DNA of 12,423 bases from a virus. The translations under genes were made by a program, and so were the position numbers. The stretch lies in the UHGV virus genome UHGV-1781828. The stretch is one strand, 5' to 3'. This document shows, piece by piece, positions 1-12,423 of the stretch (its first letter is position 1; each line of letters starts with the position of its first letter). The notes under the pieces were generated by a model that was given only the letters and a program-made list of their open reading frames with translations, ran no database searches and was not told the origin of the DNA.

Positions 1-21
1 AGACGTGTGCTCTTCCGATCT
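1..21. other. Illumina TruSeq adapter remnant (reverse complement of AGATCGGAAGAGCACACGTCT)
   Basis: Positions 1-21 read agacgtgtgctcttccgatct, an exact 21-nt match to the reverse complement of the universal adapter stem. Confidence 0.85.
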
Positions 22-377
22 TCTCGTTTTGCTTCACCGAGCTTTCGTCTTAATTCCATGTTTTCTGATTCAAGCTTTTCCATGTCTTGTTGGTATCGAT
101 CGCGGTGTTCTTTCCATGCTTTTCGATACGCCTTCATGTACGTTGTATTGGCCTTTCTCTTTGCCTGACGAACCGCATGGTGGTTTTTCACAAACCAGTC
201 AGGGTCGTTAAATGCTGCTCTGGCGCATGTATACCAATAATTTGTTGCCTCCCTGTTTAGCCAATAAATAATGATAAATGGCAACCGGATAGACACCATT
301 TTTCGTTGTGACTCTTTCTCGCCAAACATGTGCCCTTTTTTGATGCTAAGGCCAAATCCAGGTTGAATTAAAAGCAT
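1..377 (-). CDS. Hypothetical nin-region protein, partial (3' end runs off the window; last ~7 codons read into adapter)
   Basis: Own translation of the minus strand: open frame from ATG at 377 to position 1 with no stop (MLLIQPGFGLSIKKGHMFGEKESQRK...). GAGGA Shine-Dalgarno 7 nt upstream, overlapping the ninE stop. Not in the ORF track because it has no stop in the window. No family recognised. Confidence 0.5.
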   Translation of the reverse strand, partial: MLLIQPGFGLSIKKGHMFGEKESQRKMVSIRLPFIIIYWLNREATNYWYTCARAAFNDPDWFVKNHHAVRQAKRKANTTYMKAYRKAWKEHRDRYQQDMEKLESENMELRRKLGEAKREDRKSTR

Positions 378-379
378 TG

Positions 380-556
380 TCATTTCCTCGCACGATGTCT
401 TAGCCACCGGATATCCCACAGGTGAGCCGTGTAGTTGAAGGTTTTTACGTCAGATTCTTTTGGGATTGGCTTGCGTTTATTTCTGGAGCGTTTCGTTGGA
501 AGGTATTTGCAGTTTTCGCAGATGATGTCGGTGAAACTTCGTCGCTGTCGTCTCAT
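380..556 (-). CDS. ninE: NinE protein (58 aa)
   Basis: Translation [58 protein letters not shown] closely matches lambda NinE as recalled. Start taken at the internal Met of the 73-aa track ORF; its ATG overlaps the ninB stop (ATGA). Confidence 0.85.
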
Positions 557-963
557 TCGTACCTCCTGTCGGTAAATCTGACACCCTGACCAATAGCCCA
601 TGCTGTCGTGTACTCAATCAGACTTGCCATACGCTTCACACTCATCTGCGCGCTGCTTTCGCGAATGTTGACGTATTCGCCTTCAAGGCCGCGCAAAACA
701 TCAGCTTCCTGTTTTGTTGCCACTGCATGACCGCTGATCAACAAAACCTTCCATTGTTCCGGTTTTAACCATTTTCCGCACCATTGAACCTGACGTGCGA
801 TATCCGCCAGCATCGCGTGAAATTTTGCGTTCTGGTCAAGGTTGCGCTTGTAGTCAGTAATGCGGATGGTGACTGGCTTGTCTTTATCGAGTGGTGTTGC
901 GAGGATGGCATTTATTGCAGCTTGCTGTTGTTGCTTAGTTCGGAGGAAGATTGTTTGCTTCAT
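553..963 (-). CDS. ninB: NinB recombination protein (Orf-family, 136 aa)
   Basis: Translation [21 protein letters not shown]...[19 protein letters not shown] resembles lambda NinB in length and motifs. Start set at ATG 963, which has a GAGGTG Shine-Dalgarno upstream, rather than the GTG at 969 used by the track. Confidence 0.85.
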
Positions 964-970
964 TGTCACC

Positions 971-1177
971 TCAACTCACAAAACGCCACGCCATTTTTGC
1001 TACGACAACAGGCATAACACCGATAATCCCCCACAGGAAAATGCTACCTAAAAGAATATTCCCCAGGTCTTTACCTTCGCCTACCAACCGGACAAAACAG
1101 CCAGCAACCACAATGAACGTCGCCACCATCCACAGAGCACCGAGAAGCCTCAATGCAGAGAAAATCAACTCAACCAC
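971..1177 (-). CDS. Small hydrophobic (probable membrane) protein, 68 aa
   Basis: Track ORF with GTG start. Sequence is dominated by hydrophobic residues (LLGALWMVATFIVVAGCF...IFLWGIIGVMPVVVA), consistent with two transmembrane helices. Sits between the helicase terminator and ninB. Weak evidence for expression. Confidence 0.4.
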   Translation of the reverse strand: MVELIFSALRLLGALWMVATFIVVAGCFVRLVGEGKDLGNILLGSIFLWGIIGVMPVVVAKMAWRFVS

Positions 1178-1192
1178 GATTTACTCTCCCCC

Positions 1193-1224
1193 AAATAAAA
1201 AGGCCTGCGATTACCAGCAGGCCT
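1193..1224 (-). terminator. Rho-independent terminator downstream of the helicase gene (tR2-like position)
   Basis: Minus strand reads AGGCCTGC-tggtaatc-GCAGGCCT followed by TTTTATTT: an 8-bp GC-rich stem, 8-nt loop and T-tract, 29 nt past the helicase stop. Confidence 0.65.
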
Positions 1225-1252
1225 GTTATTAGCTCAGTGACGTAGATGGTCA

Positions 1253-2689
1253 TCAGAATCCTCCTTTCTTCTTGGACTGCGGTTCCTCGCGTTCACGGCG
1301 GCGCATTTCAGCAGACTGTTGGTCTGTGTCATAAATAGCGCCATTTGCCTGAATGCAATACACCGTGCCGGTATTGCCATGACGATTGAGACGAAGGATT
1401 AGTTCGGTTTCACCAGGAGGAACGCTGTCATCAAAAGCACCTTCACGATGGATCCCGACCCAATAATCGCAATCCTGTTCAATCTGCCCTGTATCTCGCG
1501 AGTCACTTGGTAATGGGCGTTTATTGGTTCGGCTTTCCAATGCGCGGTTAAGCTGTGTCAGAAGCACAACAACGCAATCAAGCTCTTTGGCAAGGTTCTT
1601 CAGTCCTTTGGTGATCATGCCGTAAGCAAGGTCGTTGCGATCGGCCTTTTCAGCGGTCATTAGTGTCAGGTAATCGACCAGAATCATGCCAACACATCCT
1701 TTTTCTCGCTTGATTCGACGGCTTTCGCTGACGATTTGAGCCAGAGATAATCCCGGCGTGTCGTCGATGTAAAGCAGGTCGATTTCACTCAAGCGATTGG
1801 CTGTTTCGATCGCCCTGTTGAAGTCACCATCGTAATCACCCTGATAGCCGTCATCAGCGTCACTTGTCGCCGGAAGGTAAAAAATATTCGGGTTAACACC
1901 TGACTTCTGTCCCACCAGTTTTTCCAGTATCTGATCACCTGGCATTTCAAGGCTGAACATCAGAGCGGGCTTTTTCTCATGCACTGCGCAATTGATTGCC
2001 ATCTGGCTGTATAGCGTCGTTTTCCCCATCTTAGGGCGAGCGCCAATGACAAACAGAGAGCCTTTCACCAGACCTTTCGGTGACAGCATCCTGTCCAGCG
2101 ATGGGATCCCTGTGCTCATTCCCCGTTGTTCGCCTGATGGGTCAAATCGTTTCTCAAGGTCGCTAACCCAGTCTTCCATAACCTCACCAAATGAGCGAAG
2201 GCCGCGACGCGATCCGGTTTTTGCATGGTCTGTCAGTTGCGTGAAAATCGCCTGAATAGCTTCGTACTTCTGCGTCGCAGTCATTCCGTTGCGGGAATAG
2301 AGCAATTCCGTCGCTTCAGTCATGCGGTTGATGGCGTAGCGTTCCATTGCGGTTTCGCGAACCTGCATTGCATAGGCAACGATGTTTGCGGCGCTTGGCG
2401 TGTTCTTTGCGATCTCAGTGATATAAGCAAAACCGCCAACAGACGCCGTTAACGATTTACGCTCCAGTTCATCGAAAAGCGTCAGGCCATCTACTGGCTT
2501 TTGCTCCCGGTGCATTCTGGTTATTTCTTCGAAAATGATTTTGTGTGGTCGGCTGTAAAATGAATCAGGCTTCAGCATCGCCAGAACTTTCTGGACGCGC
2601 TCACTGCTGTCATCATCCAGAAGCAATCCACCAATCACCGCCTGCTCTGCCTCGATGCTATGGGGCGGCGCATAAAAATTATCGGTCAT
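1253..2689 (-). CDS. Replicative DNA helicase, DnaB family (P22 gene 12-like), 478 aa
   Basis: Track ORF with DnaB-like N-terminal region (HSIEAEQAVIGGLLLD), Walker A (GARPKMGKT) and a Walker B-like stretch (LILVDYLTLM). Start set at ATG 2689 (MTDNFYAPP...), which has a GAGGG Shine-Dalgarno; it overlaps the O-like stop by 11 nt. Confidence 0.9.
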   Translation of the reverse strand: MTDNFYAPPHSIEAEQAVIGGLLLDDDSSERVQKVLAMLKPDSFYSRPHKIIFEEITRMHREQKPVDGLTLFDELERKSLTASVGGFAYITEIAKNTPSAANIVAYAMQVRETAMERYAINRMTEATELLYSRNGMTATQKYEAIQAIFTQLTDHAKTGSRRGLRSFGEVMEDWVSDLEKRFDPSGEQRGMSTGIPSLDRMLSPKGLVKGSLFVIGARPKMGKTTLYSQMAINCAVHEKKPALMFSLEMPGDQILEKLVGQKSGVNPNIFYLPATSDADDGYQGDYDGDFNRAIETANRLSEIDLLYIDDTPGLSLAQIVSESRRIKREKGCVGMILVDYLTLMTAEKADRNDLAYGMITKGLKNLAKELDCVVVLLTQLNRALESRTNKRPLPSDSRDTGQIEQDCDYWVGIHREGAFDDSVPPGETELILRLNRHGNTGTVYCIQANGAIYDTDQQSAEMRRREREEPQSKKKGGF

Positions 2690-3569
2690 CGTGTTCACCC
2701 TCACGAACTTTCAGGTAGGTATTATCGTTAAGCAGGAAATCAAATCCCTTTTTGTGCCAGACGGTTCCGCGTTGATGGTTTTGGCGCTCTTCGAACATCC
2801 ATCGGCAATTTTCGCCTACGTAGCTCAAATAATTTCTCCAGTCCTGCATCGTGAACCCATGCCCGTCAAGCTGGCGGGTTATCACTCCGGCTTTGCGCCA
2901 GAACGTTCGGATCTGGTTTTTACGCTTGTCATTCAGTGCGCGGATTTTTGGCGCTTCAGGAAGGATTTCGTGGTAAGCATCGACAACATCCTGACAGCTA
3001 ACGGAAGGTTTTTTCTTGTCAGACTTTTTGTCTGCTGCGGTACTCTCTAATACGTCAGTATTAGAGATATTATTTATATTATTGTTTATGGACAACCGTT
3101 GGACAACCGTTGGACAATCTCCGCTGAGAGCCGCGCCATTACTGGTGTTTGCGTTGGACAACCGTTGGACAACCGTTGGACAATTTTTTGCCTGAAAATC
3201 GTCATATTTAACGATTGTAAACAGGCTAAATTTCTTCCCCATCGAGCAAATATTAAGCATCCCTTTCGACTCAAAAGTCCGTAATAAGCTCCGAACTTTG
3301 TTGTCGGGGATGAATGTTTCTCTGACCAGCGACGGGCGTCCAGTTATCATCTGACCGCGATCAACAGTTATCGGCCCGATATCCGTATTGACGACAGTAG
3401 ATTCGTGATTAGCCTTGAGGATTAAGTGAAGCCAAAGATGTACTGCCTGAGAGTCCTTATAGAGCCTGCTGTCCATAAACTGGCGGTGTATAGAGACATA
3501 CCCCATACTGGATGCCTCCTGATGTTGTACAGGGTTATGCCTGTAATCAGCTAACTTAACGACGCCCAT
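2679..3569 (-). CDS. Replication initiation protein, O-like (P22 gene 18-like), 296 aa
   Basis: Track ORF with strong AGGAGTG Shine-Dalgarno before ATG 3569. Sits directly upstream of, and is translationally coupled to, the helicase. Contains iterated DNA repeats inside the coding region (protein repeat CPTVVQRLS), as phage O-type initiators do. Confidence 0.85.
   Translation of the reverse strand: MGVVKLADYRHNPVQHQEASSMGYVSIHRQFMDSRLYKDSQAVHLWLHLILKANHESTVVNTDIGPITVDRGQMITGRPSLVRETFIPDNKVRSLLRTFESKGMLNICSMGKKFSLFTIVKYDDFQAKNCPTVVQRLSNANTSNGAALSGDCPTVVQRLSINNNINNISNTDVLESTAADKKSDKKKPSVSCQDVVDAYHEILPEAPKIRALNDKRKNQIRTFWRKAGVITRQLDGHGFTMQDWRNYLSYVGENCRWMFEERQNHQRGTVWHKKGFDFLLNDNTYLKVREGEHDDR
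3090..3183. repeat. Replication origin iterons inside the O-like gene
   Basis: Two clusters of the 11-bp unit ggacaaccgtt (2.5 copies each) at 3090-3117 and 3156-3183, separated by 38 bp, with an AT-rich tract (attagagatattatttatattattgtttat) immediately adjacent at about 3055-3089. Confidence 0.7.
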
Positions 3570-3717
3570 GTTTCACTCCTGCTTTGGCTAGTCTGTAAAC
3601 ACCAACAAGGCGCTCTGCGAACGCCCTGTTATTTGCTGCGGCTACCACTAATCCCTCAGGTGAATCAGGGTGTCGAATCTCTTCTTTTTCCTGGTATTTC
3701 TTACGACGTTTTGTCAT
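3556..3717 (-). CDS. Small ORF (53 aa) between cII-like gene and O-like gene
   Basis: Own translation: ATG at 3717, MTKRRKKYQEKEEIRHPDSPEGLVVAAANNRAFAERLVGVYRLAKAGVKHGRR, stop TAA at 3558-3556. Strong AGGAGTC Shine-Dalgarno. The RBS and first codons resemble the lambda O start region as recalled (CAGGAGTCATTATGACAAA). Overlaps the O-like start by 14 nt. Below the track length cut-off. Confidence 0.4.
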   Translation of the reverse strand: MTKRRKKYQEKEEIRHPDSPEGLVVAAANNRAFAERLVGVYRLAKAGVKHGRR

Positions 3718-3728
3718 AATGACTCCTG

Positions 3729-3804
3729 TGGATTGATCCAGTAATGACCTCAGAATTGCATATCAATTTGCTTAAAATCCTCGGTGGCGGCCGGGGATTT
3801 TTTC
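3729..3804 (+). ncRNA. oop: oop-like antisense RNA overlapping the 3' end of the cII-like gene
   Basis: Plus-strand ggattgatccagtaatgacctcagaa... resembles the recalled 5' portion of lambda oop RNA. A CATAAT -10 hexamer lies at 3715-3720 and an intrinsic terminator at the 3' end. The transcript is antisense to the cII-like C-terminus. Ends are approximate. Confidence 0.6.
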
Positions 3805-4046
3805 TTTGTGATTTCATCAAGCGCATACTTAAAAGCCCTACTAATCGGACTGATGTCTGATGCCATTCCTAAAGCACACAAGACCGAAGCAATAAATCTC
3901 CAGTCCGTTCTGCTTATCTTCGATTCATGACAGCCAATCATCTTTGCCAAACCGCGCTGGGTAAGCGTTGACAGGTTGATGAGTAAATCAGTTTCAGCGC
4001 GATCAATTTCTCGCTGTGTTGGCTTGCTGTAACTTGCTTGTGTCAT
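3750..4046 (-). CDS. cII: CII-like transcriptional activator (98 aa)
   Basis: Lies directly after cro and nutR. Its C-terminal tail KKKSPAATEDFKQIDMQF matches the lambda CII tail KKRPAATERSEQIQMEF as recalled; the N-terminal part is diverged. Confidence 0.8.
   Translation of the reverse strand: MTQASYSKPTQREIDRAETDLLINLSTLTQRGLAKMIGCHESKISRTDWRFIASVLCALGMASDISPISRAFKYALDEITKKKSPAATEDFKQIDMQF
3778..3806 (+). terminator. Intrinsic terminator of the oop-like RNA (to-like)
   Basis: TCCTCGG-tggcgg-CCGGGGA (7-bp stem with one G-U pair, 6-nt loop) followed by TTTTTTCTTT. Confidence 0.65.
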
Positions 4047-4130
4047 TTCTTAATATTTCCAATAGTGAATAGTTAGTTGAAAGGTATGCGTGGAAACGCA
4101 TATGGCCTTAGTTGGTCAGATATATTGGGA

Positions 4131-4147
4131 CTCGCTTTGTCAGCGAC
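4131..4147 (-). promoter_or_regulatory. nutR boxB-like hairpin, P22 type
   Basis: Minus strand reads TCGCTGACAAAGCGA, a stem-loop with the GACAA pentaloop of P22-type boxB (canonical GCGCUGACAAAGCGC as recalled), located between cro and cII. A further hairpin (TATGCGT-ttcc-ACGCATA, minus strand, 4085-4102) lies downstream at a tR1-like position but lacks a T-tract. Confidence 0.55.
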
Positions 4148-4184
4148 GTAGGACGAATGTCCATTGTGAAAATAGCGGTGTTAC

Positions 4185-4394
<210 letters not shown>

Positions 4395-4409
4395 TTAGTA
4401 CATGCAACC

Positions 4410-4481
4410 ATTATCACCGCTAGAGGTAAAATAGTCAACACGCACGGTGTTAGATATTTATCCCTTGCGGTGATAGATTTA
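4410..4481. promoter_or_regulatory. Right operator and divergent promoters PR / PRM (OR1, OR2, OR3)
   Basis: OR1 4412-4428 (tatcaccgctagaggta), OR2 4436-4452 (caacacgcacggtgtta), OR3 4459-4475 (tatcccttgcggtgata). PR -35 TTGACT and -10 GATAAT on the minus strand (plus 4433-4438 and 4410-4415). PRM -35 TAGATA at 4451-4456 and -10 GATTTA at 4476-4481, with the cI ATG at 4486 (leaderless, as in lambda). Confidence 0.9.
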
Positions 4482-4482
4482 A

Positions 4483-5199
<717 letters not shown>

Positions 5200-5217
5200 T
5201 TTTAAGGAAATATCTTC

Positions 5218-5658
5218 ATGAGAGAAGAAAAAATAATAACAATCTACACAACGGCGGTAAAACCCGGGCTGGCAATCACTCCTTTTATGACACCAGATCC
5301 TATAATAGTGTCGGAAGAATACCCTTGTTCCGGCTCATTTTACCTAACTGCAATAATGTACTTCGAGCACGAAAAAAAATACACTACCGAACTTGATGTC
5401 GTATTCAATGGAGAATCGGTTTTACCTGATATCTCTAGCAATCAAGAGCAACTGCAAACATTTATGTTTTCTCCTGTCAATGAAAAATATGTTGTGGTTG
5501 GCACATATCTTTTCGTTAAAAACATCAAACTTATAGAAACAGGAACATATGACATAATTTATCGCATCTTTGAAGACATTGATGGTAATCTTAGCGAAGT
5601 TATTGATGAAAAAAAATGCGCTCTTATTTCAACCACCCCGAACAGAGATAAGGAATGA
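5218..5658 (+). CDS. Hypothetical protein (146 aa), first gene of the cassette in the rexA position
   Basis: Track ORF starting 19 nt after the cI stop on the same strand, AAGGA Shine-Dalgarno. Visibly AT-rich compared with the flanks. Acidic, no transmembrane segment, no recognisable motif. Confidence 0.6.
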   Translation: MREEKIITIYTTAVKPGLAITPFMTPDPIIVSEEYPCSGSFYLTAIMYFEHEKKYTTELDVVFNGESVLPDISSNQEQLQTFMFSPVNEKYVVVGTYLFVKNIKLIETGTYDIIYRIFEDIDGNLSEVIDEKKCALISTTPNRDKE

Positions 5659-6011
5659 AACGACATCTGTACGCTGTGCCTCTTGACAGGAGTAAAGTTG
5701 ATAATTTTCCACATAACCACCATAATGATGAGACATATGGTGGTGGTAACGGTGGAGGTGGTGACATGTTACAGCGCATAAAAATTCTTGAAGATAAAGT
5801 CGCAACCATGGCGACCGACATCGCTGTAATTAAGTCTAACTATGCAACATCTGCCAATGTAGAATCTGTTAAAACAGACATAGCTAATGCAAAAGCAGAA
5901 CTTCACAGCGCAATGAGACTCCAAGCCATGGCTATTATTGGTTCAGTTCTTGCAGCCGTTGGAACTGGTGTTGGGTTAATAATAAAAATGATGCCATCAC
6001 TACCTCACTAA
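5655..6011 (+). CDS. Hypothetical membrane-anchored coiled-coil protein (118 aa; alternative start at 5766 gives 82 aa), second gene of the cassette in the rexB position
   Basis: ATGA overlap with the upstream gene. An in-frame ATG at 5766 has a strong GGAGGTG Shine-Dalgarno. Predicted amphipathic helical region (LQRIKILEDKVATMATDIAVIK...AKAELHSAMRLQ) followed by a single C-terminal transmembrane helix with small-xxx-small motifs (AMAIIGSVLAAVGTGVGLIIKMM). Confidence 0.6.
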   Translation: MKRHLYAVPLDRSKVDNFPHNHHNDETYGGGNGGGGDMLQRIKILEDKVATMATDIAVIKSNYATSANVESVKTDIANAKAELHSAMRLQAMAIIGSVLAAVGTGVGLIIKMMPSLPH

Positions 6012-6022
6012 GAATCTACACA

Positions 6023-6049
6023 ACCCGGCCTCAGCGCCGGGTTTTCTTT
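6023..6049 (+). terminator. Rho-independent terminator after the cassette (tImm-like position)
   Basis: ACCCGGC-ctcagc-GCCGGGT stem-loop followed by TTTCTTT, 12 nt past the stop at 6009-6011. Confidence 0.6.
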
Positions 6050-6200
6050 GCCTCACGATCTCCCCACCTAAAAACACATAACCAATTGTATTTGTTGAAA
6101 AATAAACAGATACAACTCACTAAACATAGCAATTCAGATCTCTCACCTACCAAACAATGCCCCCCTGCAAAAAATAAATTCATATAAAAAACATACAGAT

Positions 6201-6270
6201 AACCATCTGCGGTGATGAATTATCTCTAGCGGTGTTGACATAAATACCACTGGCGGTGATACTAAACACA
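6201..6270 (+). promoter_or_regulatory. Left operator and PL promoter (OL3, OL2, OL1)
   Basis: OL3 6201-6217 (aaccatctgcggtgatg), OL2 6221-6237 (tatctctagcggtgttg), OL1 6245-6261 (taccactggcggtgata). PL -35 TTGACA at 6235-6240 and -10 GATACT at 6258-6263, directing rightward transcription toward N. Layout matches the lambda PL region as recalled, with several point differences. Confidence 0.9.
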
Positions 6271-6331
6271 TCAGCAGGACGCACTACTCACCATGGCGGT
6301 GAATATACAACGATTCGAATATGAATCTACG

Positions 6332-6346
6332 GCGCTGACAAAGCGC
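6332..6346 (+). promoter_or_regulatory. nutL boxB hairpin, P22 type
   Basis: GCGCTGACAAAGCGC: 5-bp stem with GACAA pentaloop, matching P22 boxB as recalled. Lies about 65 nt downstream of the PL start in the N leader. Confidence 0.6.
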
Positions 6347-6607
6347 AATAACCAAAGTGAACTTTGGGGTGTGGTGAAGCCAGCTAGTCACTGGCAAGTG
6401 CTTACCTACTGTTGAGCGGTGAAGCGCTCCCAACGCTAGCAATAGCGTGGACGAGATGGGGAGCCGCGGGCGATAAGGCCGCCATAACGCGCACGTTGTC
6501 GCATGGAAAAATCACTGGGGTGCCGGTTATACCCCTCCGAATGAGACTCAACAAGCTGGAGCTAGACTACCAGCCACCACACCACCAAAGTTCATCAGGA
6601 GGTCTAT

Positions 6608-6991
6608 ATGACACGCAGAACTCAGTTCAAAGGCAATTCACGTTCTCGTCGTCGTGAGCGTTTAAAGGCAAAGGCATTAGCTAACGGCGTACTGGCCCGC
6701 GAAGAAGCAATAAGTTCAGAAGTATTACACCGCCCTACTCTAAGCAGAGCGCAGATTCAGGCTAAAGGTACTCACGAAACGCCTGAGCGCATAGAAGACG
6801 CTAAGCCAATTAAGTTCATGGCACAGGACGTGATCTGGCAACAGAAAGAATACAGACGCAATCTGGAGCGAGCGGCCATTGTGTACGCGAATGAGTTTGG
6901 ACATAAGCAACCAGAAACTGGTGTATGTCTTCCAAACGTAGCCATTTACGCGGCAGGCTACCGGAAATCAAAACAACTGACGGCGAGGTGA
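6608..6991 (+). CDS. N: N-like transcription antitermination protein (P22 gene 24-like), 127 aa
   Basis: First gene downstream of PL/nutL, AGGAGG Shine-Dalgarno. N-terminal arginine-rich motif (GNSRSRRRERLKAKALA). C-terminus PNVAIYAAGYRKSKQLTAR resembles the P22 gp24 C-terminus as recalled. Confidence 0.75.
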   Translation: MTRRTQFKGNSRSRRRERLKAKALANGVLAREEAISSEVLHRPTLSRAQIQAKGTHETPERIEDAKPIKFMAQDVIWQQKEYRRNLERAAIVYANEFGHKQPETGVCLPNVAIYAAGYRKSKQLTAR

Positions 6992-7050
6992 CTTGTGTTG
7001 GTCGCCAGAAAATGAAATTAGGCAGTAAGCTACTGTATGAGGGGTGAGAT

Positions 7051-7239
7051 ATGCATAAATGTCAGTTCTGTGGATACATGTTTGAATCAAATGAAATGCA
7101 ACGTATTTCGTTAAACCTTATCGGTAGGCCATACAACATTTGCCTAGGATGTAGCGAGAAATACAAAAACAAAGACATGTGGGACGACAATAAAAACGAT
7201 ATCGACTGGAATAAAGTGCCATGTATTGATGATAGTTAA
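7051..7239 (+). CDS. Small Cys4 zinc-ribbon-like protein (62 aa), hypothetical
   Basis: Track ORF with GAGGGG Shine-Dalgarno 6 nt upstream. Two CxxC pairs (CQFC ... CLGC). AT-rich. Occupies the lambda ral position immediately after N. Confidence 0.5.
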   Translation: MHKCQFCGYMFESNEMQRISLNLIGRPYNICLGCSEKYKNKDMWDDNKNDIDWNKVPCIDDS

Positions 7240-7319
7240 AAATAATTATGCCGCATAGTCGGCCTTCTTTTGGCATAAACAACAGAATAAACACTGCACT
7301 GAATTATTTGAGGTGAGAT

Positions 7320-7790
7320 ATGACAAAATCATGGAGCGTACCTTTTCCTGAATCAGAAACTGAACATGATGGAATGCCTGTTTTCTGGAGATTCCAAGCG
7401 ACAGTTGAAGAAGATGGAATCAAAATATTCGCACTTCAATATATAGCTTTTCATCAGACAGAGCATTATGCATGGTTGGTTCCTGCGCATTGGATTGTTA
7501 ATTTTAAACCAGCACCAAATCAGTGGTTACAGGAATGGAAACAAAGGAGAAATAGATATGCAATTAAGAAAGTAGCAAAAAATGCAGAAAGATCTTTTGC
7601 GTTCCCGACGAAGAAACTTGCCATTGAAAGTTTATTGCGCCGGAAGAAATACCATTTGATGAGAATCAAACAAGATTTGGCTGTTGTATCAACTCTTGTT
7701 GATGGGATGAAGAATATTGATACATCAACACCAGATATTGAATATAACTTTGGACACAACCAAGAAACAGAAAATTGGGTGTTTTATTAG
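7320..7790 (+). CDS. Hypothetical protein (156 aa)
   Basis: Track ORF with GAGGTG Shine-Dalgarno; the RBS context is nearly identical to that of the preceding gene (gaggtgagatATG). AT-rich. No recognisable domain. Confidence 0.55.
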   Translation: MTKSWSVPFPESETEHDGMPVFWRFQATVEEDGIKIFALQYIAFHQTEHYAWLVPAHWIVNFKPAPNQWLQEWKQRRNRYAIKKVAKNAERSFAFPTKKLAIESLLRRKKYHLMRIKQDLAVVSTLVDGMKNIDTSTPDIEYNFGHNQETENWVFY

Positions 7791-7892
7791 TATGAATAAG
7801 CACTGTGTATTCATTCCAACGAGTGAATACACGGAGCAATGTCGCTCGTAACTAAACAGGAGCCGACTTGTTCTGATTATTGGAAATATTCT

Positions 7893-7921
7893 TTGCCCTC
7901 CAGTGTGAGGGCAATTTTTTT
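7893..7921 (+). terminator. Rho-independent terminator in the PL operon
   Basis: TTGCCCTC-cagtgt-GAGGGCAA (8-bp stem, 6-nt loop) followed by seven T residues. Confidence 0.7.
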
Positions 7922-7933
7922 GACGGAGGATAT

Positions 7934-8671
7934 ATGAGTGAAGTAACAGATTTAGTTGTTATTGAAAAAGCAAATGCAATGACTGTATTTCAGTCTGCCG
8001 ACCAGATTGAAGAAATCCTTCAAAAGGTTGAACGTGAAGTTATGTCCTTTGTGCCTGATATCACAACGGCAAAGGGCAGAAAGGAGATCGCTTCTCTGGC
8101 GTATAAAGTTGCGCAGACGAAAACATATCTCGATGGTCTTGGAAAAGACCTTGTTGCTGAACTGAAGGAAATTCCAAAGCTAATTGATGCCAACCGCAAG
8201 ACAGTGCGTGATCGCCTTGATGAGCTGAAATCCAAGGCACGCCAGCCTCTTACTGATTATGAGGAGGAACAGGCACGGATTAAAGCCGAAGAAGAAGCTA
8301 AGGCCGCAGCGGAACGTGCAGAGCGTGAACGTATTGAAGCCGAGCAACGAGCACAGCGCGAAGCAAAAGAGGCAGCAGAACGAGCTGAAAGAGAAAAGCA
8401 GGCGGCAATTGAAGCAGAACGCCGAAAAGCACAGGAGGAGGCTGAACGAATCCGGCGCGAGGCTGAAGCAAAAGAGCAAGCCAGAATAGCAGAAGAAAAA
8501 AGAATCAAGGAAGAAGAAGAGTGTAGAGCAAAGGATAAAGCTCACCGGAAAGAAGTAAATAACAAAATACTTGCTGACCTTATCAAGGTTGGCGCATCAG
8601 AAGATGTTGCTAAAAATATCATAACAGCCATCGTAAAAGGCGAAGTATTCGCAACAAAAATAACCTACTAA
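7934..8671 (+). CDS. Hypothetical protein with a long E/R/A/K-rich coiled-coil repeat region (245 aa)
   Basis: Start set at ATG 7934 (MSEVTDLVVIEK...), which has a GGAGGA Shine-Dalgarno and lies just after the terminator. The track start at 7880 would put the terminator inside the gene. The central region is a low-complexity charged repeat (AEEEAKAAAERAERERIEAEQRAQREAKEAAERAEREKQAAIEAERRKAQEEAERIRREAEAKEQARIAEEKRIKEEEE). Confidence 0.6.
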   Translation: MSEVTDLVVIEKANAMTVFQSADQIEEILQKVEREVMSFVPDITTAKGRKEIASLAYKVAQTKTYLDGLGKDLVAELKEIPKLIDANRKTVRDRLDELKSKARQPLTDYEEEQARIKAEEEAKAAAERAERERIEAEQRAQREAKEAAERAEREKQAAIEAERRKAQEEAERIRREAEAKEQARIAEEKRIKEEEECRAKDKAHRKEVNNKILADLIKVGASEDVAKNIITAIVKGEVFATKITY

Positions 8672-8695
8672 TAAAACCAACATAAGGAACCACCC

Positions 8696-8827
8696 ATGAT
8701 TTACGCAATCGCGGGAGGCGCTCGCATGGGTGCCTTCCAATTAAATGAATCTTTACTTGAACGAATCACCCGTAAATTACGTGACGGATGGAAAAGAGTT
8801 GAGGTCTTATTATGCGCAATGAAATAG
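8696..8827 (+). CDS. cIII: CIII-like protein (43 aa; FtsH-inhibitor family)
   Basis: Own translation MIYAIAGGARMGAFQLNESLLERITRKLRDGWKRVEVLLCAMK. The core ESLLERITRKLRDGWKR matches the conserved lambda CIII helix as recalled. AAGGA Shine-Dalgarno. Below the track cut-off. Confidence 0.7.
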   Translation: MIYAIAGGARMGAFQLNESLLERITRKLRDGWKRVEVLLCAMK

Positions 8828-8964
8828 CCATCAATCACCAGATGCTTCGTGCTGCACAGAACAAAGCAGTAATAGCCAGATTTATTGGTGATTCAAAAAT
8901 GTGGCTTGAAGCAAATAAAGCGATGAAATCAGCTATCAACCTTCCGTGGTATCGCAGGAAATGA
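8812..8964 (+). CDS. Small protein (50 aa), possibly Kil-like
   Basis: Own translation MRNEIAINHQMLRAAQNKAVIARFIGDSKMWLEANKAMKSAINLPWYRRK. Sits immediately after cIII, as kil does in lambda. The motif IARFIGDSKM resembles my recollection of Kil/KilR; the assignment is tentative. GAGGT Shine-Dalgarno. Confidence 0.45.
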   Translation: MRNEIAINHQMLRAAQNKAVIARFIGDSKMWLEANKAMKSAINLPWYRRK

Positions 8965-9068
8965 GTTTTACGGATAACTGGTCAGACGAAGAATTCATTC
9001 GTCAGATGAACAAAATGCTCAATCAGCACAAAGAACAGGAGAAAGATGATGATTCTGACTCTGAATGA
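8961..9068 (+). CDS. Very small acidic ORF (35 aa), uncertain
   Basis: Own translation MSFTDNWSDEEFIRQMNKMLNQHKEQEKDDDSDSE. ATGA overlap with the preceding gene. Overlaps the start of the next ORF by 23 nt in another frame. May not be expressed. Confidence 0.2.
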   Translation: MSFTDNWSDEEFIRQMNKMLNQHKEQEKDDDSDSE

Positions 9069-9357
9069 TAAGCGTGAAATATCGCAAATAATCGCAAGTT
9101 TTACTGATGAAGATTACGAGCGAATCAACAGTGAAGTTGATCGCCTCTGCAAACGTTGCGACCCAATAAGCGAAATGCTTCGCTCATATAAACCAGATGA
9201 ACACACTAAGGACGCTATCGACTGGCTGGAAGATGATGACTGTAACTATCAGGAAAAAGCCGCTGAATGGTTCTGGGATGCAATAACCGAAAGAGTTAAG
9301 GCTGAATATGCCTTCGCAATATTTAAACGCAGACACATTTTTGGAGAAGCAGCATGA
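9046..9357 (+). CDS. Hypothetical acidic protein (103 aa) immediately upstream of recT
   Basis: Track ORF with AGGAGAAAG Shine-Dalgarno. Its stop overlaps the recT start (ATGA). Acidic composition (many D/E residues), no recognised domain. Confidence 0.55.
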   Translation: MMILTLNDKREISQIIASFTDEDYERINSEVDRLCKRCDPISEMLRSYKPDEHTKDAIDWLEDDDCNYQEKAAEWFWDAITERVKAEYAFAIFKRRHIFGEAA

Positions 9358-10265
9358 GCAATATCGTTGAATTCGTTAAACAGCAGGAGCAGTTATTCTG
9401 CGGAGCATTGACTGAACAGACGGTGACATGGGCTAAGGAAAGCCAGTTTGCAATTCAGTATTTCCAGAAAAACGATTACCTGGCTAAAACGGCACTGGCA
9501 AATCCAACCAGCGCACAGAACGCCATCATCAATGTTGCGGCGATCGGCATCACCTTAAACCCGGCCAGCAAACTGGCTTATCTGGTTCCGCGCGACGGCA
9601 TGGTTTGCCTTGATATCAGTTATATGGGATTGCTCCATATTGCAATGGAGTCTGGTGTTATCTCATGGGGTCAGGCAAAACTTGTTCATGCTAACGATAC
9701 CTATGAGTCAAACGGGCTTGATAAAGCACCAACCCATAAATACAACGCCTTCGGTGATCGTGGTGATATCGTTGGCGTTTACTGCACAGTTAAGACGCCA
9801 GCAGGTGATTATCTAACGGAAGAGATGAGTCTGGCTGAAATTGAGGCTGTAAGGAAAACAAGCAAGGCAGCATTCAGTGATAAAGGACCATGGGTAAATC
9901 ACTGGAATGAGATGGCGCGAAAGACGGTCGTAAAGCGTGCAAGCAAGTATTGGCCTAAGGCATCACGTCTTGATAGTGCTATTCACGTACTAAACGAAGA
10001 AGAAGGTGTGTGGACTGAACCAGTTATGCCGCACAAATCAGAGGAAGATATCCGCGAAGATGAACGGAAACTCCAGCAGGAAATTATGGAAAAAGCACAA
10101 CTTCTTTGTGATGAAATGGCTCAGGCAGAAAACATGGATGATTTGAAGCGATATTTTTCAGAAGCATATCGCCTGACATCTGGAATGAAATTGCAGCAGA
10201 ACGTACAAGCCATATACATAGAATGCAAAGCGAAACTGGAGGTTGCCAGTGAGCAAACTGTATGA
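9354..10265 (+). CDS. recT: RecT-family single-strand annealing recombinase (303 aa)
   Basis: Track ORF. The region GPWVNHWNEMARKTVVKRASKYWP resembles the conserved block of E. coli Rac RecT (GPWVTHWEEMAKKTAIRRLFKYLP as recalled). Located in the PL operon at the bet-equivalent position. Confidence 0.85.
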   Translation: MSNIVEFVKQQEQLFCGALTEQTVTWAKESQFAIQYFQKNDYLAKTALANPTSAQNAIINVAAIGITLNPASKLAYLVPRDGMVCLDISYMGLLHIAMESGVISWGQAKLVHANDTYESNGLDKAPTHKYNAFGDRGDIVGVYCTVKTPAGDYLTEEMSLAEIEAVRKTSKAAFSDKGPWVNHWNEMARKTVVKRASKYWPKASRLDSAIHVLNEEEGVWTEPVMPHKSEEDIREDERKLQQEIMEKAQLLCDEMAQAENMDDLKRYFSEAYRLTSGMKLQQNVQAIYIECKAKLEVASEQTV

Positions 10266-10731
10266 AATTGCCAATGAATACGCAAAATTGATGGATTCAG
10301 ATTTAGAACCAGAGATGATTGCTGACACAATAGAAGGCATGGAAGGAGAATTTACCGATAAAATAGAGCAACTTCTTTCCGTCATTAAAAATGAATCTGG
10401 TTATGCTGAACGCCTCAAGGAAGAGGCAAAGTCACTGAATGAGCGAGCCGCAGTAATCCAAAATAAGATTGACAGCATCAAATCATATATAGCGTCATCG
10501 CTTGAAATGGTTGGCAAGAAAAATATTCGAGCAGGTATTCACCAGGTAACAATCCGCAAACCGTCAGAAATTGTAGAAATAATCGACTCAAGCGCCCTTC
10601 CTCCTGAATACGTTGAGTTTGAAACGACAATTAAAGCCGACAAACTGGCAATCAAACACCAACTAAAAGCAGGAATAAATATCCCCGGCGCTCAACTCAA
10701 AGTTGGGAAACCTTCACTTCTTATCAAATAA
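10249..10731 (+). CDS. Hypothetical protein, possibly Siphovirus Gp157-like (160 aa)
   Basis: Start set at GTG 10249, which has a GGAGG Shine-Dalgarno 6 nt upstream and overlaps the recT 3' end. The family assignment is from overall helical character and its position next to the recombinase, and is tentative. Confidence 0.55.
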   Translation: MSKLYEIANEYAKLMDSDLEPEMIADTIEGMEGEFTDKIEQLLSVIKNESGYAERLKEEAKSLNERAAVIQNKIDSIKSYIASSLEMVGKKNIRAGIHQVTIRKPSEIVEIIDSSALPPEYVEFETTIKADKLAIKHQLKAGINIPGAQLKVGKPSLLIK

Positions 10732-10742
10732 CGGTATCGCCT

Positions 10743-11057
10743 ATGAAAAAGACTCCATGGGAGAAATGGGAAGTCGATTTCTTGCGCGAAGTAGCGGCGA
10801 CAATGCCAGTTGAAGTTATCGCTGAAAAACTGGAAAGGACTGAAAAAGCAGTAATGGCGAAAGCAACAAGGATTGGAGCTGACATTGTTAGCCGACTTCG
10901 TGGAAGACGATGGACAAGAGCCGAAGTATCACTTTTCGGTAAGTTCTCCGCAGAAGAAATAGCAATTGCAACCTGCCGCTCAATTTATTCAGTAAGAGCT
11001 ATGCGATACAAGCTAAAAAAACTCGATGAAGAAAGAGCAGGCATACGAATAAATTAA
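10743..11057 (+). CDS. Hypothetical protein (104 aa)
   Basis: Track ORF with a weak RBS. Contains two similar segments ([25 protein letters not shown]... and [25 protein letters not shown]...), suggesting an internal duplication. Confidence 0.5.
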
Positions 11058-11073
11058 CAAAGAGGAATTTACC

Positions 11074-11241
11074 ATGAGAGGACTTGCATACAATCCCGGC
11101 ATTCTTCCGGCAGAAATGATTATTCGCCAACGCGTAAAGCCAATGCCATCGAGAGAGGAATTGCTTAAGAGAAAGAGTTTCGGTTCTGTTAATGACAACA
11201 AATATCTGAATGCGATGTGGCGCAAAGGAGGCAACCAGTGA
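11074..11241 (+). CDS. Small ORF (55 aa), hypothetical
   Basis: Own translation [61 protein letters not shown] Shine-Dalgarno. Its stop overlaps the GTG start of the next gene (GTGA). Confidence 0.3.
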
Positions 11242-11882
11242 GCAAGATTGACTATCAGGTACTGCGTGAGGCAGCAGTAGCAATTGAAACAGTAGCAACA
11301 CCTCAAAAATTGCTGGCATTTCGTATGAAAGTCACACCTCAGGTTGTGCTGGCTCTACTGGATGAACGAGATGCATTAAATGAACGCCTAGCCGAACTGG
11401 AGGCTGATTTAGCAGGGCTGGCCGAAGACCACCAGAAAGCGACTGAGTCAATTAAGCAGGCTGATGCAGCTGTTAAGTTGGCACACGAGAAGTTTTCGGC
11501 GCTGGCGGCGGAGAATGCGATGTTGAAGCAACGGACACAGCAACTTATCGACATCATTAGTAATACTGACAATGACTACTGCATGTGTGGTTCTGCTATG
11601 AAAGACCACGTGCACAGCGGATGTGGTTATCCTACTGGCATGTTCGATTATTACTACAACCAGTGGCTGGAGTCAGATAACAAAACCCCAGCCACCGACG
11701 CTTTCCTGGCTGAAGTGCGGGCGCATGACCTCAACGCTTTCATTCGGCATCACAGTGCAGAACTGGATGCGCATATTAAAAACGGTGGTGAGCAGTTCGA
11801 CGAAAAATCAGTACGCATCAGAGACATCATCGTCTCAGCCCGCTTGTTCAGGGAGCAGATTCGCAAAGGAGTGCAGTCATGA
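11238..11882 (+). CDS. Hypothetical protein with N-terminal coiled coil and Cys/His-rich C-terminal part (214 aa), possibly Ea22-like
   Basis: Start set at GTG 11238 ([13 protein letters not shown]...), which has an AGGAGG Shine-Dalgarno 6 nt upstream. Coiled-coil segment ([28 protein letters not shown]). C-terminal part contains [20 protein letters not shown]. Family assignment is from memory and tentative. Confidence 0.5.
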
Positions 11883-12151
11883 GAAAATCATACATCGTTA
11901 TTCAGCAGTACTGGTGGTGCAACGAGAAAGGCCATGGAGTTGAATACACGACAGACGGCGTTGACTTCGATAAGCGCGATAAGGCAATCAAGCATGGTCT
12001 GAAAACACAAGGTAGTGATGATTTCAACATCGGCGTTATCGAAGGCGGTAAGCTTGTTTCCTTCGACTGGATGAATGAGCCAGTGGGTGAAAGTGCAGAG
12101 ACACTTGCTGAAATTGCAGAAGCCATCGGTTACGAAGGAACCGCCCAATGA
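11879..12151 (+). CDS. Hypothetical protein (90 aa)
   Basis: Track ORF. ATGA overlap with the upstream gene and with the downstream gene. No recognised motif. Confidence 0.5.
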   Translation: MRKSYIVIQQYWWCNEKGHGVEYTTDGVDFDKRDKAIKHGLKTQGSDDFNIGVIEGGKLVSFDWMNEPVGESAETLAEIAEAIGYEGTAQ

Positions 12152-12423
12152 GCAACATCGACAAACAGGCGTTAAATCAAGAAAAAATTGAATGGCTCAA
12201 TAAATTAGCTGATATGGAGTATTGCAAAAGCAATCCTGGGCATTGGCTGATGAGCTTGAAGGATACAAACATGCTTGCGAAATTGGCTCTGCGCTCAGTG
12301 GCGCTGCTGGATGAGCTGGAAGCCGCAGAGAAGCGTATTGCTAAACTGGAAGCGAAGCTCGATAGCGCAGATAAATTGCAAGATAGCGCATTTCGTCATG
12401 GTCTTCAGCATGGCTTCAGTTTA
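12148..12423 (+). CDS. Hypothetical protein, partial (3' end beyond window); N-terminus similar to the 11238-11882 protein
   Basis: Own translation from ATG 12148: MSNIDKQALNQEKIEWLNKLADMEYCKSNPGHWLMSLKDTNMLAKLALRSVALLDELEAAEKRIAKLEAKL..., open to the window end. Its N-terminus (MSNIDKQAL) parallels MSKIDYQVL of the upstream gene. Confidence 0.5.
   Translation, partial: MSNIDKQALNQEKIEWLNKLADMEYCKSNPGHWLMSLKDTNMLAKLALRSVALLDELEAAEKRIAKLEAKLDSADKLQDSAFRHGLQHGFSL

What the first reader, a model, noticed from the sequence alone, without database searches (positions are those of the whole stretch)
4410..4481. OR1 carries a point difference from canonical lambda at the position adjacent to the operator centre
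OR1 here reads TATCACCGCTAGAGGTA, whereas the lambda OR1 I recall is TATCACCGCCAGAGGTA. OR2 and OR3 match lambda. The changed base is next to the centre of the 17-bp operator, and OL2 carries the same substitution at the equivalent position (see next finding). Together with the apparent substitutions in cI and Cro, this may mark a natural immunity variant with altered repressor affinity at the highest-affinity site, or a history of operator mutation.
Basis: partly seen in the sequence, partly recalled or inferred. Interest (0 to 1): 0.45.

Follow-up and report, generated by a model that had tools for sequence, protein, structure and literature searches.

The report
Common natural variant of lambda OR1
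The single-base difference from textbook lambda in operator OR1 is real, but it is the usual form of this site in wild lambda-immunity phages such as HK97, it sits at a position the repressor barely reads, and so it is an ordinary, already sequenced polymorphism.

Summary
OR1 (4412-4428) reads TATCACCGCTAGAGGTA, with T at 4421 where reference lambda has C. OR2 and OR3 are identical to lambda. OL2 carries the same change at 6228. cI has T3A and K71N, and Cro has K39N.

The interpretation as a special immunity variant or a trace of operator mutation is not supported:
- The whole cro-OR-cI block is the HK97/mEp234/HK106 allele (99.2-99.3% identical). Eight named wild phages carry the T, and GenBank annotates the site as operator oR1.
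- T is the majority state in IMG/VR: 90 of 120 pattern hits and 79 of 100 distinct OR-OL haplotypes.
- T is as common as C in 5,426 complete E. coli genomes (177 vs 175).
- Counts of the C state are inflated by laboratory lambda DNA.
- Published single-substitution data for lambda repressor on OR1 give +0.4 kcal/mol for exactly this change, in the lowest quarter of the 51 tabulated substitutions.
- Natural variation in all six operators clusters at this inner, non-consensus position.
- The site shows ordinary allele frequency and linkage.

Best reading: a near-neutral polymorphism at a weakly read operator position, inherited with the HK97-type immunity haplotype. Already known; low interest. 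The effect on Cro binding and on PR strength was not determined.

The parts
4412..4428 (.). Operator OR1, HK97-type allele: TATCACCGCTAGAGGTA
   Evidence: It is identical to the feature annotated 'operator oR1, Cro; CI' in EF120460 and EF120461.
4421..4421 (.). The variant base. It is T on the + strand where lambda has C (G->A in lambda-map orientation). It is operator position 8', next to the centre in the non-consensus half, and about -18 in the PR spacer.
   Evidence: for the alignment. One search gives ddG +0.4 kcal/mol for G10->A. The promoter position was derived from the PR features annotated in EF120460.
4436..4452 (.). Operator OR2, CAACACGCACGGTGTTA, identical to lambda
4459..4475 (.). 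Operator OR3, TATCCCTTGCGGTGATA, identical to lambda
4410..4438 (-). PR promoter. The -10 GATAAT is at 4410-4415 and the -35 TTGACT at 4433-4438 (read on the - strand), with a 17-nt spacer that contains the variant. The transcript start is inferred at 4403.
   Evidence: By position-for-position identity with the pR features of EF120460
4451..4479 (+). PRM promoter (-35 TAGATA, -10 TAGATT). The leaderless cI transcript starts at 4486.
   Evidence: By identity with the pRM features of EF120460
4185..4385 (-). cro, 66 aa, K39N relative to lambda
4486..5199 (+). cI repressor, 237 aa, with T3A and K71N relative to lambda (precursor numbering). The cro..cI stretch (4185-5199) differs from HK97 at 8 nucleotides, 7 of them in cI.
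   Evidence: One search found many IMG/VR loci with 100% protein identity.
6201..6217 (.). Operator OL3, AACCATCTGCGGTGATG. The outermost base is G where lambda has A.
6221..6237 (.). Operator OL2, TATCTCTAGCGGTGTTG. It carries the same G->A at position 8' (base 6228) as OR1.
6245..6261 (.). Operator OL1, TACCACTGGCGGTGATA, identical to lambda

Best explanation
The T at 4421 is one of two common natural alleles of lambda-type OR1. It was inherited as part of the HK97/mEp234/HK106-type immunity haplotype (Cro N39 or K39, OR1-T, cI A3, cI N71).

It lies at operator position 8', next to the centre in the non-consensus half. Lambda repressor discriminates very little there, so the change costs about 0.4 kcal/mol (about 2-fold) of intrinsic OR1 affinity. 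OR1 is filled cooperatively with OR2. The repressor-dimer concentration needed for half-occupancy of the pair should therefore rise only about 1.4-fold, which is the square root of the 2-fold change (inference). On remembered Shea-Ackers / Koblan-Ackers binding energies, OR1 would still be the strongest site, and immunity specificity is unchanged.

The site behaves as a near-neutral polymorphism in a recombining phage population. It is not a mark of operator-constitutive mutation or of a new immunity type.

Shown: sequence identity, allele frequencies, linkage pattern, and the published ddG for lambda cI. Inferred: negligible phenotypic effect in this phage, whose own cI (A3, N71) and Cro (N39) were not the proteins measured.
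For: -: cro-OR-cI is 99.3% identical to HK97 and 99.2% to mEp234 and HK106, versus 97.1% to lambda.
- the T state is present in HK97, mEp234, HK106, HK244, HK542, CL707, mEp332 and PhiR5_2. The C state is present in lambda, HK544 and SfI.
- the GenBank records EF120456-61 annotate the T-bearing 17-mer as 'operator oR1' bound by Cro and CI.
- of the first 120 IMG/VR contigs matching OR1(N)-spacer-OR2, 90 have T and 30 have C.
- among 100 distinct OR..OL haplotypes, 79 have T and 21 have C.
- in 80 loci retrieved through cI alone, with no constraint on operator sequence, this base is the only polymorphism inside OR1.
- a 33-mer centred on the base matches 177 of 5,426 complete E. coli genomes in the T form and 175 in the C form.
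- C-state hits in non-enteric genomes are lambda or lambda-derived laboratory DNA (15 of 24 are exact lambda over the flanks), so C counts are inflated.
- PMC2194778 Table 3, which holds the experimental values of Sarai & Takeda 1989, gives G10->A = +0.4 kcal/mol. The other two substitutions at that position cost 0.5 and 0.2. The symmetric position in the consensus half costs 2.5-2.7.
- natural variation in all six operators clusters at positions 7'/8'/9.
- minor-allele frequency is 0.24, against a median of 0.135 and a maximum of 0.47 for informative sites. Four-gamete pairs within 100 nt are 4 of 14, against a background of 237 of 1056. So there is no sign of a hotspot or of unusual selection.
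Against: - The ddG was measured with lambda cI (Thr at codon 3, Lys at codon 71), not with this phage's cI (Ala, Asn).
- No value for Cro binding could be retrieved (papers not held). Cro here carries K39N.
- Any effect of a -18 spacer change on PR strength is untested.
- The key comparative paper (Degnan et al. 2007) could not be read. Its functional tests, if any, are not incorporated.
- The OR1 state is strongly associated with cI codon 3: T goes with Ala in 87 of 88 loci. This is what close linkage predicts, but it does not by itself exclude co-adaptation.
Confidence: 0.85

Rival explanations
1. Adaptive fine-tuning. The OR1-T, OL2-A and OL3-G operator changes are co-adapted with the cI (A3, N71) and Cro (N39) substitutions. 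Together they set a different switch threshold: the same immunity specificity but different lysogen stability or induction sensitivity.
For: - The OR1 state is strongly associated with cI codon 3. T goes with Ala in 87 of 88 loci. C is split 14 Thr / 14 Ala.
- Cro N39 is found almost only with T (33 of 34 loci).
- The same G->A occurs at the equivalent position of OR1, OL1 and OL2, at intermediate frequencies and in all combinations.
- cI residue 3 lies in the N-terminal arm, which reaches the inner operator positions (from memory: Clarke et al. 1991; Beamer & Pabo 1992).
Against: - The associated sites are 71-150 nt apart, so linkage alone predicts the association. Recombinant classes (C with Ala, T with Thr) exist.
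- The base lies in the non-consensus half. All substitutions there cost 0.5 kcal/mol or less, while the mirror position costs 2.5-2.7. This implies that the arm does not read this base.
- Allele frequency and four-gamete behaviour are indistinguishable from background sites.
Confidence: 0.1
2. Mutation or repair hotspot. The CCAG<->CTAG change recurs independently in OR1, OL1 and OL2. All three share the core CTGGCGGTG, and the position is either prone to C->T transition or subject to very-short-patch repair bias.
For: Parallel polymorphism occurs at the homologous base of three paralogous operators. The T allele creates CTAG, a tetranucleotide known to be depleted in E. coli and a partial Vsr context (from memory: Bhagwat & McClelland 1992).
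Against: - None of the three sites is a canonical Dcm site (CCWGG), as the sequence shows directly.
- Four-gamete incompatibility around the OR1 site is not elevated over background.
- Relaxed constraint at 8' is enough to explain polymorphism at all three sites.
- VSP repair would drive toward C, yet T is the majority allele.
Confidence: 0.04
3. Laboratory-type operator-constitutive (virulence, lambda-vir-like) mutation, or a sequencing error.
For: It is a single base change inside OR1, paired with a change in OL2. This superficially resembles the multi-operator mutations of lambda vir (from memory).
Against: - The identical allele is present in eight independently isolated wild phages, 177 complete E. 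coli genomes and 90 IMG/VR contigs.
- The ddG is only 0.4 kcal/mol.
- OR2 is wild type.
- The prophage-borne allele coexists with an intact cI.
Confidence: 0.01

Closest known systems
OR of coliphage HK97 (AF069529 / NC_002167), and of mEp234 and HK106 (EF120460, EF120461)
   Same: The 100-nt cro-cI intergenic region is identical base for base, including the T in OR1. The cro..cI stretch differs from HK97 at 8 of 1015 nt. The amino-acid changes cI T3A and K71N and Cro K39N lie at nucleotide positions where the window and HK97 agree (inferred from the difference lists; HK97 was not translated).
   Different: In those phages all three OL operators are the lambda sequence, whereas the window has OL2 G->A and OL3 A->G. 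The genes between cI and OL also differ: hicAB plus one ORF in mEp234 and HK106, gp49 and gp48 in HK97, and two unannotated ORFs here.
Reference lambda OR1 (NC_001416 37998-38014)
   Same: Same 17-bp operator in the same position relative to PR, OR2, OR3, cro and cI, with 16 of 17 bases identical.
   Different: Position 8' is G:C in lambda and A:T here. The lambda state is the minority in IMG/VR.
Lambda operator-constitutive / virulence mutations (v1, v2, v3, vC1, vs326 and related; recalled from Maniatis et al. 1975, Flashman 1978, Ptashne's 'A Genetic Switch')
   Same: Single base changes inside the 17-bp operators of OR and OL.
   Different: From memory, those mutations were selected in the laboratory for escape from repression and hit strongly read positions. 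This change costs 0.4 kcal/mol, is common in wild lysogens, and leaves OR2 intact. No mention of the variant 17-mer was found in the searchable literature.
mEp332 and SfI immunity regions
   Same: They show the same G->A at position 8' in other operators: mEp332 in OR1, OL2 and OL1, and SfI in OL1 only.
   Different: Different combinations of operators carry the change. mEp332 also differs in the spacers and in OL3.

Membership tests
Lambda-immunity-type right operator (OR1-OR2-OR3 with divergent PR / PRM) | Three 17-bp partially symmetric sites with 7-bp and 6-bp spacers, lying between divergent cro and cI | tested here: met
   OR1 4412-4428, OR2 4436-4452, OR3 4459-4475; cro on the - strand at 4185-4385, cI on the + strand at 4486-5199
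Lambda-immunity-type right operator (OR1-OR2-OR3 with divergent PR / PRM) | Operator sequences matching those bound by lambda cI and Cro | tested here: met
   50 of 51 operator bases are identical to lambda, and all 51 are identical to HK97, mEp234 and HK106
Lambda-immunity-type right operator (OR1-OR2-OR3 with divergent PR / PRM) | Cognate repressor and Cro of lambda specificity | tested here: met
   cI is 235/237 and Cro 65/66 identical to lambda
Lambda-immunity-type right operator (OR1-OR2-OR3 with divergent PR / PRM) | Homoimmunity with lambda (phenotype) | not testable with these tools
   Inferred from identity with phages deposited as 'immunity region' of wild phages with lambda immunity specificity (EF120457-61; paper title). 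The paper itself could not be read.
Operator-constitutive / virulence operator mutation | Substantial loss of repressor affinity at the mutated site | tested here: not met
   The published ddG for G10->A in OR1 is +0.4 kcal/mol, in the lowest quartile of the 51 substitutions tabulated
Operator-constitutive / virulence operator mutation | Arises by selection for growth on lysogens and is not maintained in stable wild prophages | tested here: not met
   Present in 177 of 5,426 complete E. coli genomes, and the majority state among IMG/VR lambda-immunity contigs
New immunity specificity (heteroimmune derivative of lambda) | Changes in recognition-helix residues of cI or Cro, with matching changes at strongly read operator positions | tested here: not met
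   The substitutions are cI T3A and K71N and Cro K39N. From memory, these lie outside the recognition helices. The only OR change is at a weakly read position.

The most novel reading that the evidence does not exclude
The inner non-consensus position (8') of OR1, OL1 and OL2 could be a natural 'tuning knob'. On this reading, the parallel G/A polymorphism at the same base of three paralogous operators is maintained by selection. It is seen in all combinations and at 20-30% minor-allele frequency. It would set different repression and induction thresholds together with the cI A3/N71 and Cro N39 alleles. Wild lambda-immunity phages would then form a graded series of switch set-points rather than one circuit.
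Probability: 0.08. Interest if true: 0.45.

Novelty: already known. Interest (0 to 1): 0.08.

Why it matters
It matters mainly as a caution. The textbook lambda sequence is a laboratory isolate and not the modal wild sequence. Its database frequency is inflated by lambda control or vector DNA in unrelated assemblies. A one-base departure from it is therefore not evidence of altered function.

The survey gives one small positive point. Natural variation in lambda-type operators concentrates where in-vitro substitution data show the repressor is least discriminating. This is an independent, population-level confirmation of the asymmetric recognition model. Nothing here opens a new question.

Tried and rejected
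- Reading Degnan et al. 2007, Sarai & Takeda 1989, Takeda et al. 1989 and Cumby et al. 2012 directly: none is held. The cI values were recovered from a secondary table. Cro values were not found in four other papers.
- Literature search for the variant 17-mer: only unrelated primer coincidences.
- Searches for an explicit statement of HK97-lambda homoimmunity: only the reference to Dhillon et al. 1980.
- 61-mer BLAST identity bands in E. coli genomes were too confounded by flanking variation to give allele counts. They were replaced by 33-mers centred on the base. About 200 of the roughly 560 genomes with the region have other flank variants and remain unclassified. One example, an O157:H7 prophage, has C plus changes in the spacer and OR2.
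- A first neighbour-joining / parsimony count was invalidated by a few indel-shifted sequences. It was replaced by filtered four-gamete tests.
- The GTDB representative-genome scan was uninformative about natural spread, because 24 of 25 hits are laboratory lambda DNA.
- Dcm-site deamination was considered for the parallel C->T changes and rejected, because none of the sites is CCWGG.
- Sequencing error and lambda-vir-type mutation were rejected on recurrence.

Full report
**What is in the window**

The window is the early region of a lambdoid phage or prophage, in reverse orientation relative to the lambda map. Searches identify the following:
- On the - strand: ninE, ninB, a DnaB-type P gene, an O-like gene, cII and cro.
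- On the + strand: cI, two unannotated ORFs, N, and a RecT / Gam-like recombination module.

No phage record or complete E. coli genome covers more than 66% of the 12.4 kb. The window is therefore a new mosaic of familiar modules.

**The observation**

OR1 is 4412-4428 and reads TATCACCGCTAGAGGTA. Alignment to NC_001416 shows that the 100-nt cro-cI intergenic region differs from lambda at a single base. That base is T at 4421, where lambda has C. It is operator position 10 of 17, next to the central base pair and in the non-consensus half (8'). OR2 (4436-4452) and OR3 (4459-4475) are identical to lambda.

- OL2 (6221-6237) carries the same G->A at the equivalent base, 6228.
- cI differs at T3A and K71N, and Cro at K39N.

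The window differs from lambda at 28 of 1015 positions across cro..cI. One change in a 17-bp site is therefore about what background divergence predicts.

**What it is**

The cro-OR-cI block is 99.3% identical to HK97 and 99.2% identical to mEp234 and HK106, against 97.1% to lambda. The intergenic region is identical base for base to those three phages.

The distribution among named phages is:
- T state: HK97, mEp234, HK106, HK244, HK542, CL707, mEp332 and PhiR5_2.
- C state: lambda, HK544, SfI, ev243 and ev099.

GenBank records EF120455-61 are the deposited 'immunity regions' of wild phages. [quoted passage not shown] The link between the records and the paper rests on my memory. The records that carry the T (EF120456-61) explicitly annotate the 17-mer as 'operator oR1', bound by Cro and CI. 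The variant has therefore been sequenced since the HK97 genome and was recognised as OR1 by specialists.

**How common it is**

Of these, 90 have T and 30 have C.
- Among 100 distinct OR-to-OL haplotypes, 79 have T and 21 have C.
- In 80 loci retrieved through the cI protein alone, with no constraint on operator sequence, this base is the only polymorphism inside OR1: 66 T and 14 C.
- In 5,426 complete E. coli genomes, a 33-mer centred on the base matches 177 genomes in the T form and 175 in the C form.
- About 200 further genomes carry the region with other flank variants and were not classified. One example is an O157:H7 prophage with C plus spacer and OR2 changes.

The C count is inflated by laboratory lambda. 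In the GTDB representative genomes, 24 of 25 hits are C-state contigs in unrelated taxa, many of them short or of about 1x coverage. Fifteen are exact lambda over the flanks and the other nine are close variants. The taxa include Enterococcus, Shewanella, Pseudomonas, Mycobacterium and Helicobacter. The only hit on a complete enterobacterial chromosome (Enterobacter adelaidei) has T.

The window's own four-site haplotype (Cro N39, OR1-T, cI A3, cI N71) occurs in 32 of 120 loci. The reference-lambda haplotype occurs in 16.

**What it does**

PMC2194778 Table 3 reproduces the experimental single-substitution free energies of Sarai & Takeda (1989) for lambda repressor on OR1. In that numbering the operator is T3..A19 = TACCTCTGGCGGTGATA, and the variant is G10->A.
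- G10->A costs +0.4 kcal/mol. The other two substitutions at that position cost 0.5 and 0.2.
- Only 12 of the 51 tabulated substitutions cost 0.4 or less.
- The mirror position in the consensus half (C12) costs 2.5-2.7, and the strongly read positions cost 2.9-3.7.

The base therefore sits at one of the least discriminating positions of the operator, on the side that the repressor reads weakly.

A cost of 0.4 kcal/mol is about 1.9-fold in intrinsic affinity. OR1 is filled cooperatively with OR2. The dimer concentration for half-occupancy of the pair should therefore rise by the square root of that, about 1.4-fold (inference). On remembered Shea-Ackers / Koblan-Ackers values, OR1 would still be the strongest site by more than 1 kcal/mol.

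In promoter terms the base is at about -18 in the 17-nt PR spacer. This follows from position-for-position transfer of the pR annotation of EF120460. It lies outside the -35, the -10 and the extended -10. Any effect on PR strength is untested.

**Population behaviour**

Across the IMG/VR loci, natural variation inside all six operators clusters at the same inner, non-consensus positions:
- OR1 position 10, OL2 position 8 and OL1 position 8, all the same G/A change.
- OR3 positions 7-8, OL3 positions 7-8, and OR2 positions 9-10.
- In addition, the outermost base of OL3.

Lambda's own six operators already differ at this position: G, G, G, T, T, C, read directly from the sequences.

After removing five indel-shifted sequences, the focal site has a minor-allele frequency of 0.24. 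Informative sites in cro..cI have a median of 0.135 and a maximum of 0.47. The focal site is four-gamete incompatible with 4 of 14 informative sites within 100 nt, against 237 of 1056 for background pairs. It therefore behaves like an ordinary weakly constrained site in a recombining population. There is no signal of a hotspot or of unusual selection.

**Rivals**

- Co-adaptation with the cI and Cro substitutions cannot be excluded, because the measured ddG is for lambda cI and no Cro value could be retrieved. However, the strong association of T with cI Ala3 (87 of 88) is what 71 nt of linkage predicts. Recombinant classes exist. The energetic asymmetry indicates that this base is not read by the repressor arm.
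- A mutation or repair hotspot (CCAG<->CTAG) is not needed and is not supported. None of the sites is a Dcm site.
- A laboratory virulence-type mutation and a sequencing error are both excluded by recurrence in independent wild sequences.

**Verdict**

It is the common HK97-type allele of lambda OR1. It is already in the public record and annotated as such, and it sits at a position where substitution is nearly free for the repressor.

Novelty: already known. Interest: low.

Residual uncertainty concerns the unmeasured effects on Cro binding, on the variant cI, and on PR strength.

Noticed in passing
window 5218-5658 and 5655-6011 (+ strand): Two ORFs (146 aa and 118 aa) occupy the slot between cI and the OL region, where lambda has rexAB and other lambda-immunity phages carry hicAB or other cargo. 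They have no Pfam or PADLOC hit. The second matches only phrog_6324 (unknown function); it has a Gly-rich N-terminal part and a hydrophobic C-terminal tail. They are candidate lysogen-expressed accessory (moron or defence) genes.
   Followed up: partly
window 6217 (OL3) and 6228 (OL2): OL3 ends in G instead of lambda's A (AACCATCTGCGGTGATG). OL2 has the same G->A as OR1. In IMG/VR every OL3-G locus also has OL2-A, while about a third of OL2-A loci keep OL3-A. The window's full OL haplotype recurs in 13 loci (8 distinct spans).
   Followed up: partly
OR and OL of loci L012-L213 (IMG/VR): Natural polymorphism inside all six lambda-type operators clusters at the inner non-consensus positions 7'/8'/9. 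The identical G->A at 8' segregates independently in OR1, OL1 and OL2. This matches the low-ddG positions of the Sarai-Takeda matrix.
   Followed up: partly
L214-L238 (GTDB representative genomes): 24 of 25 exact hits to lambda OR are contigs of lambda or lambda-derived sequence in assemblies of unrelated organisms. Many are short or of about 1x coverage. Fifteen are exact lambda over the flanks, and two are full-length (about 48.5 kb) contigs, in a Shewanella and a Pseudomonas assembly. They most likely reflect control-DNA or vector contamination, which inflates database counts of the reference allele.
   Followed up: yes
phage record MW057783.1 ('Campylobacter phage CJLB-4', 48,361 bp): It matches the lambda immunity region like lambda itself, including the exact lambda 33-mer around OR1. 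It looks like lambda DNA deposited under a Campylobacter phage name.
   Followed up: no
window 4185-4385 (cro) and 4486-5199 (cI): Cro K39N and cI T3A / K71N relative to lambda. Cro N39 occurs in 33 of 120 IMG/VR loci, almost always together with OR1-T. cI A3 / N71 is the majority protein allele. The functional effect is unknown.
   Followed up: partly
window 1-12423: The window as a whole is a novel mosaic. The best phage record covers 63% (vB_EcoP-683R2) and the best complete E. coli genome covers 66%, all at about 97% identity in pieces.
   Followed up: no
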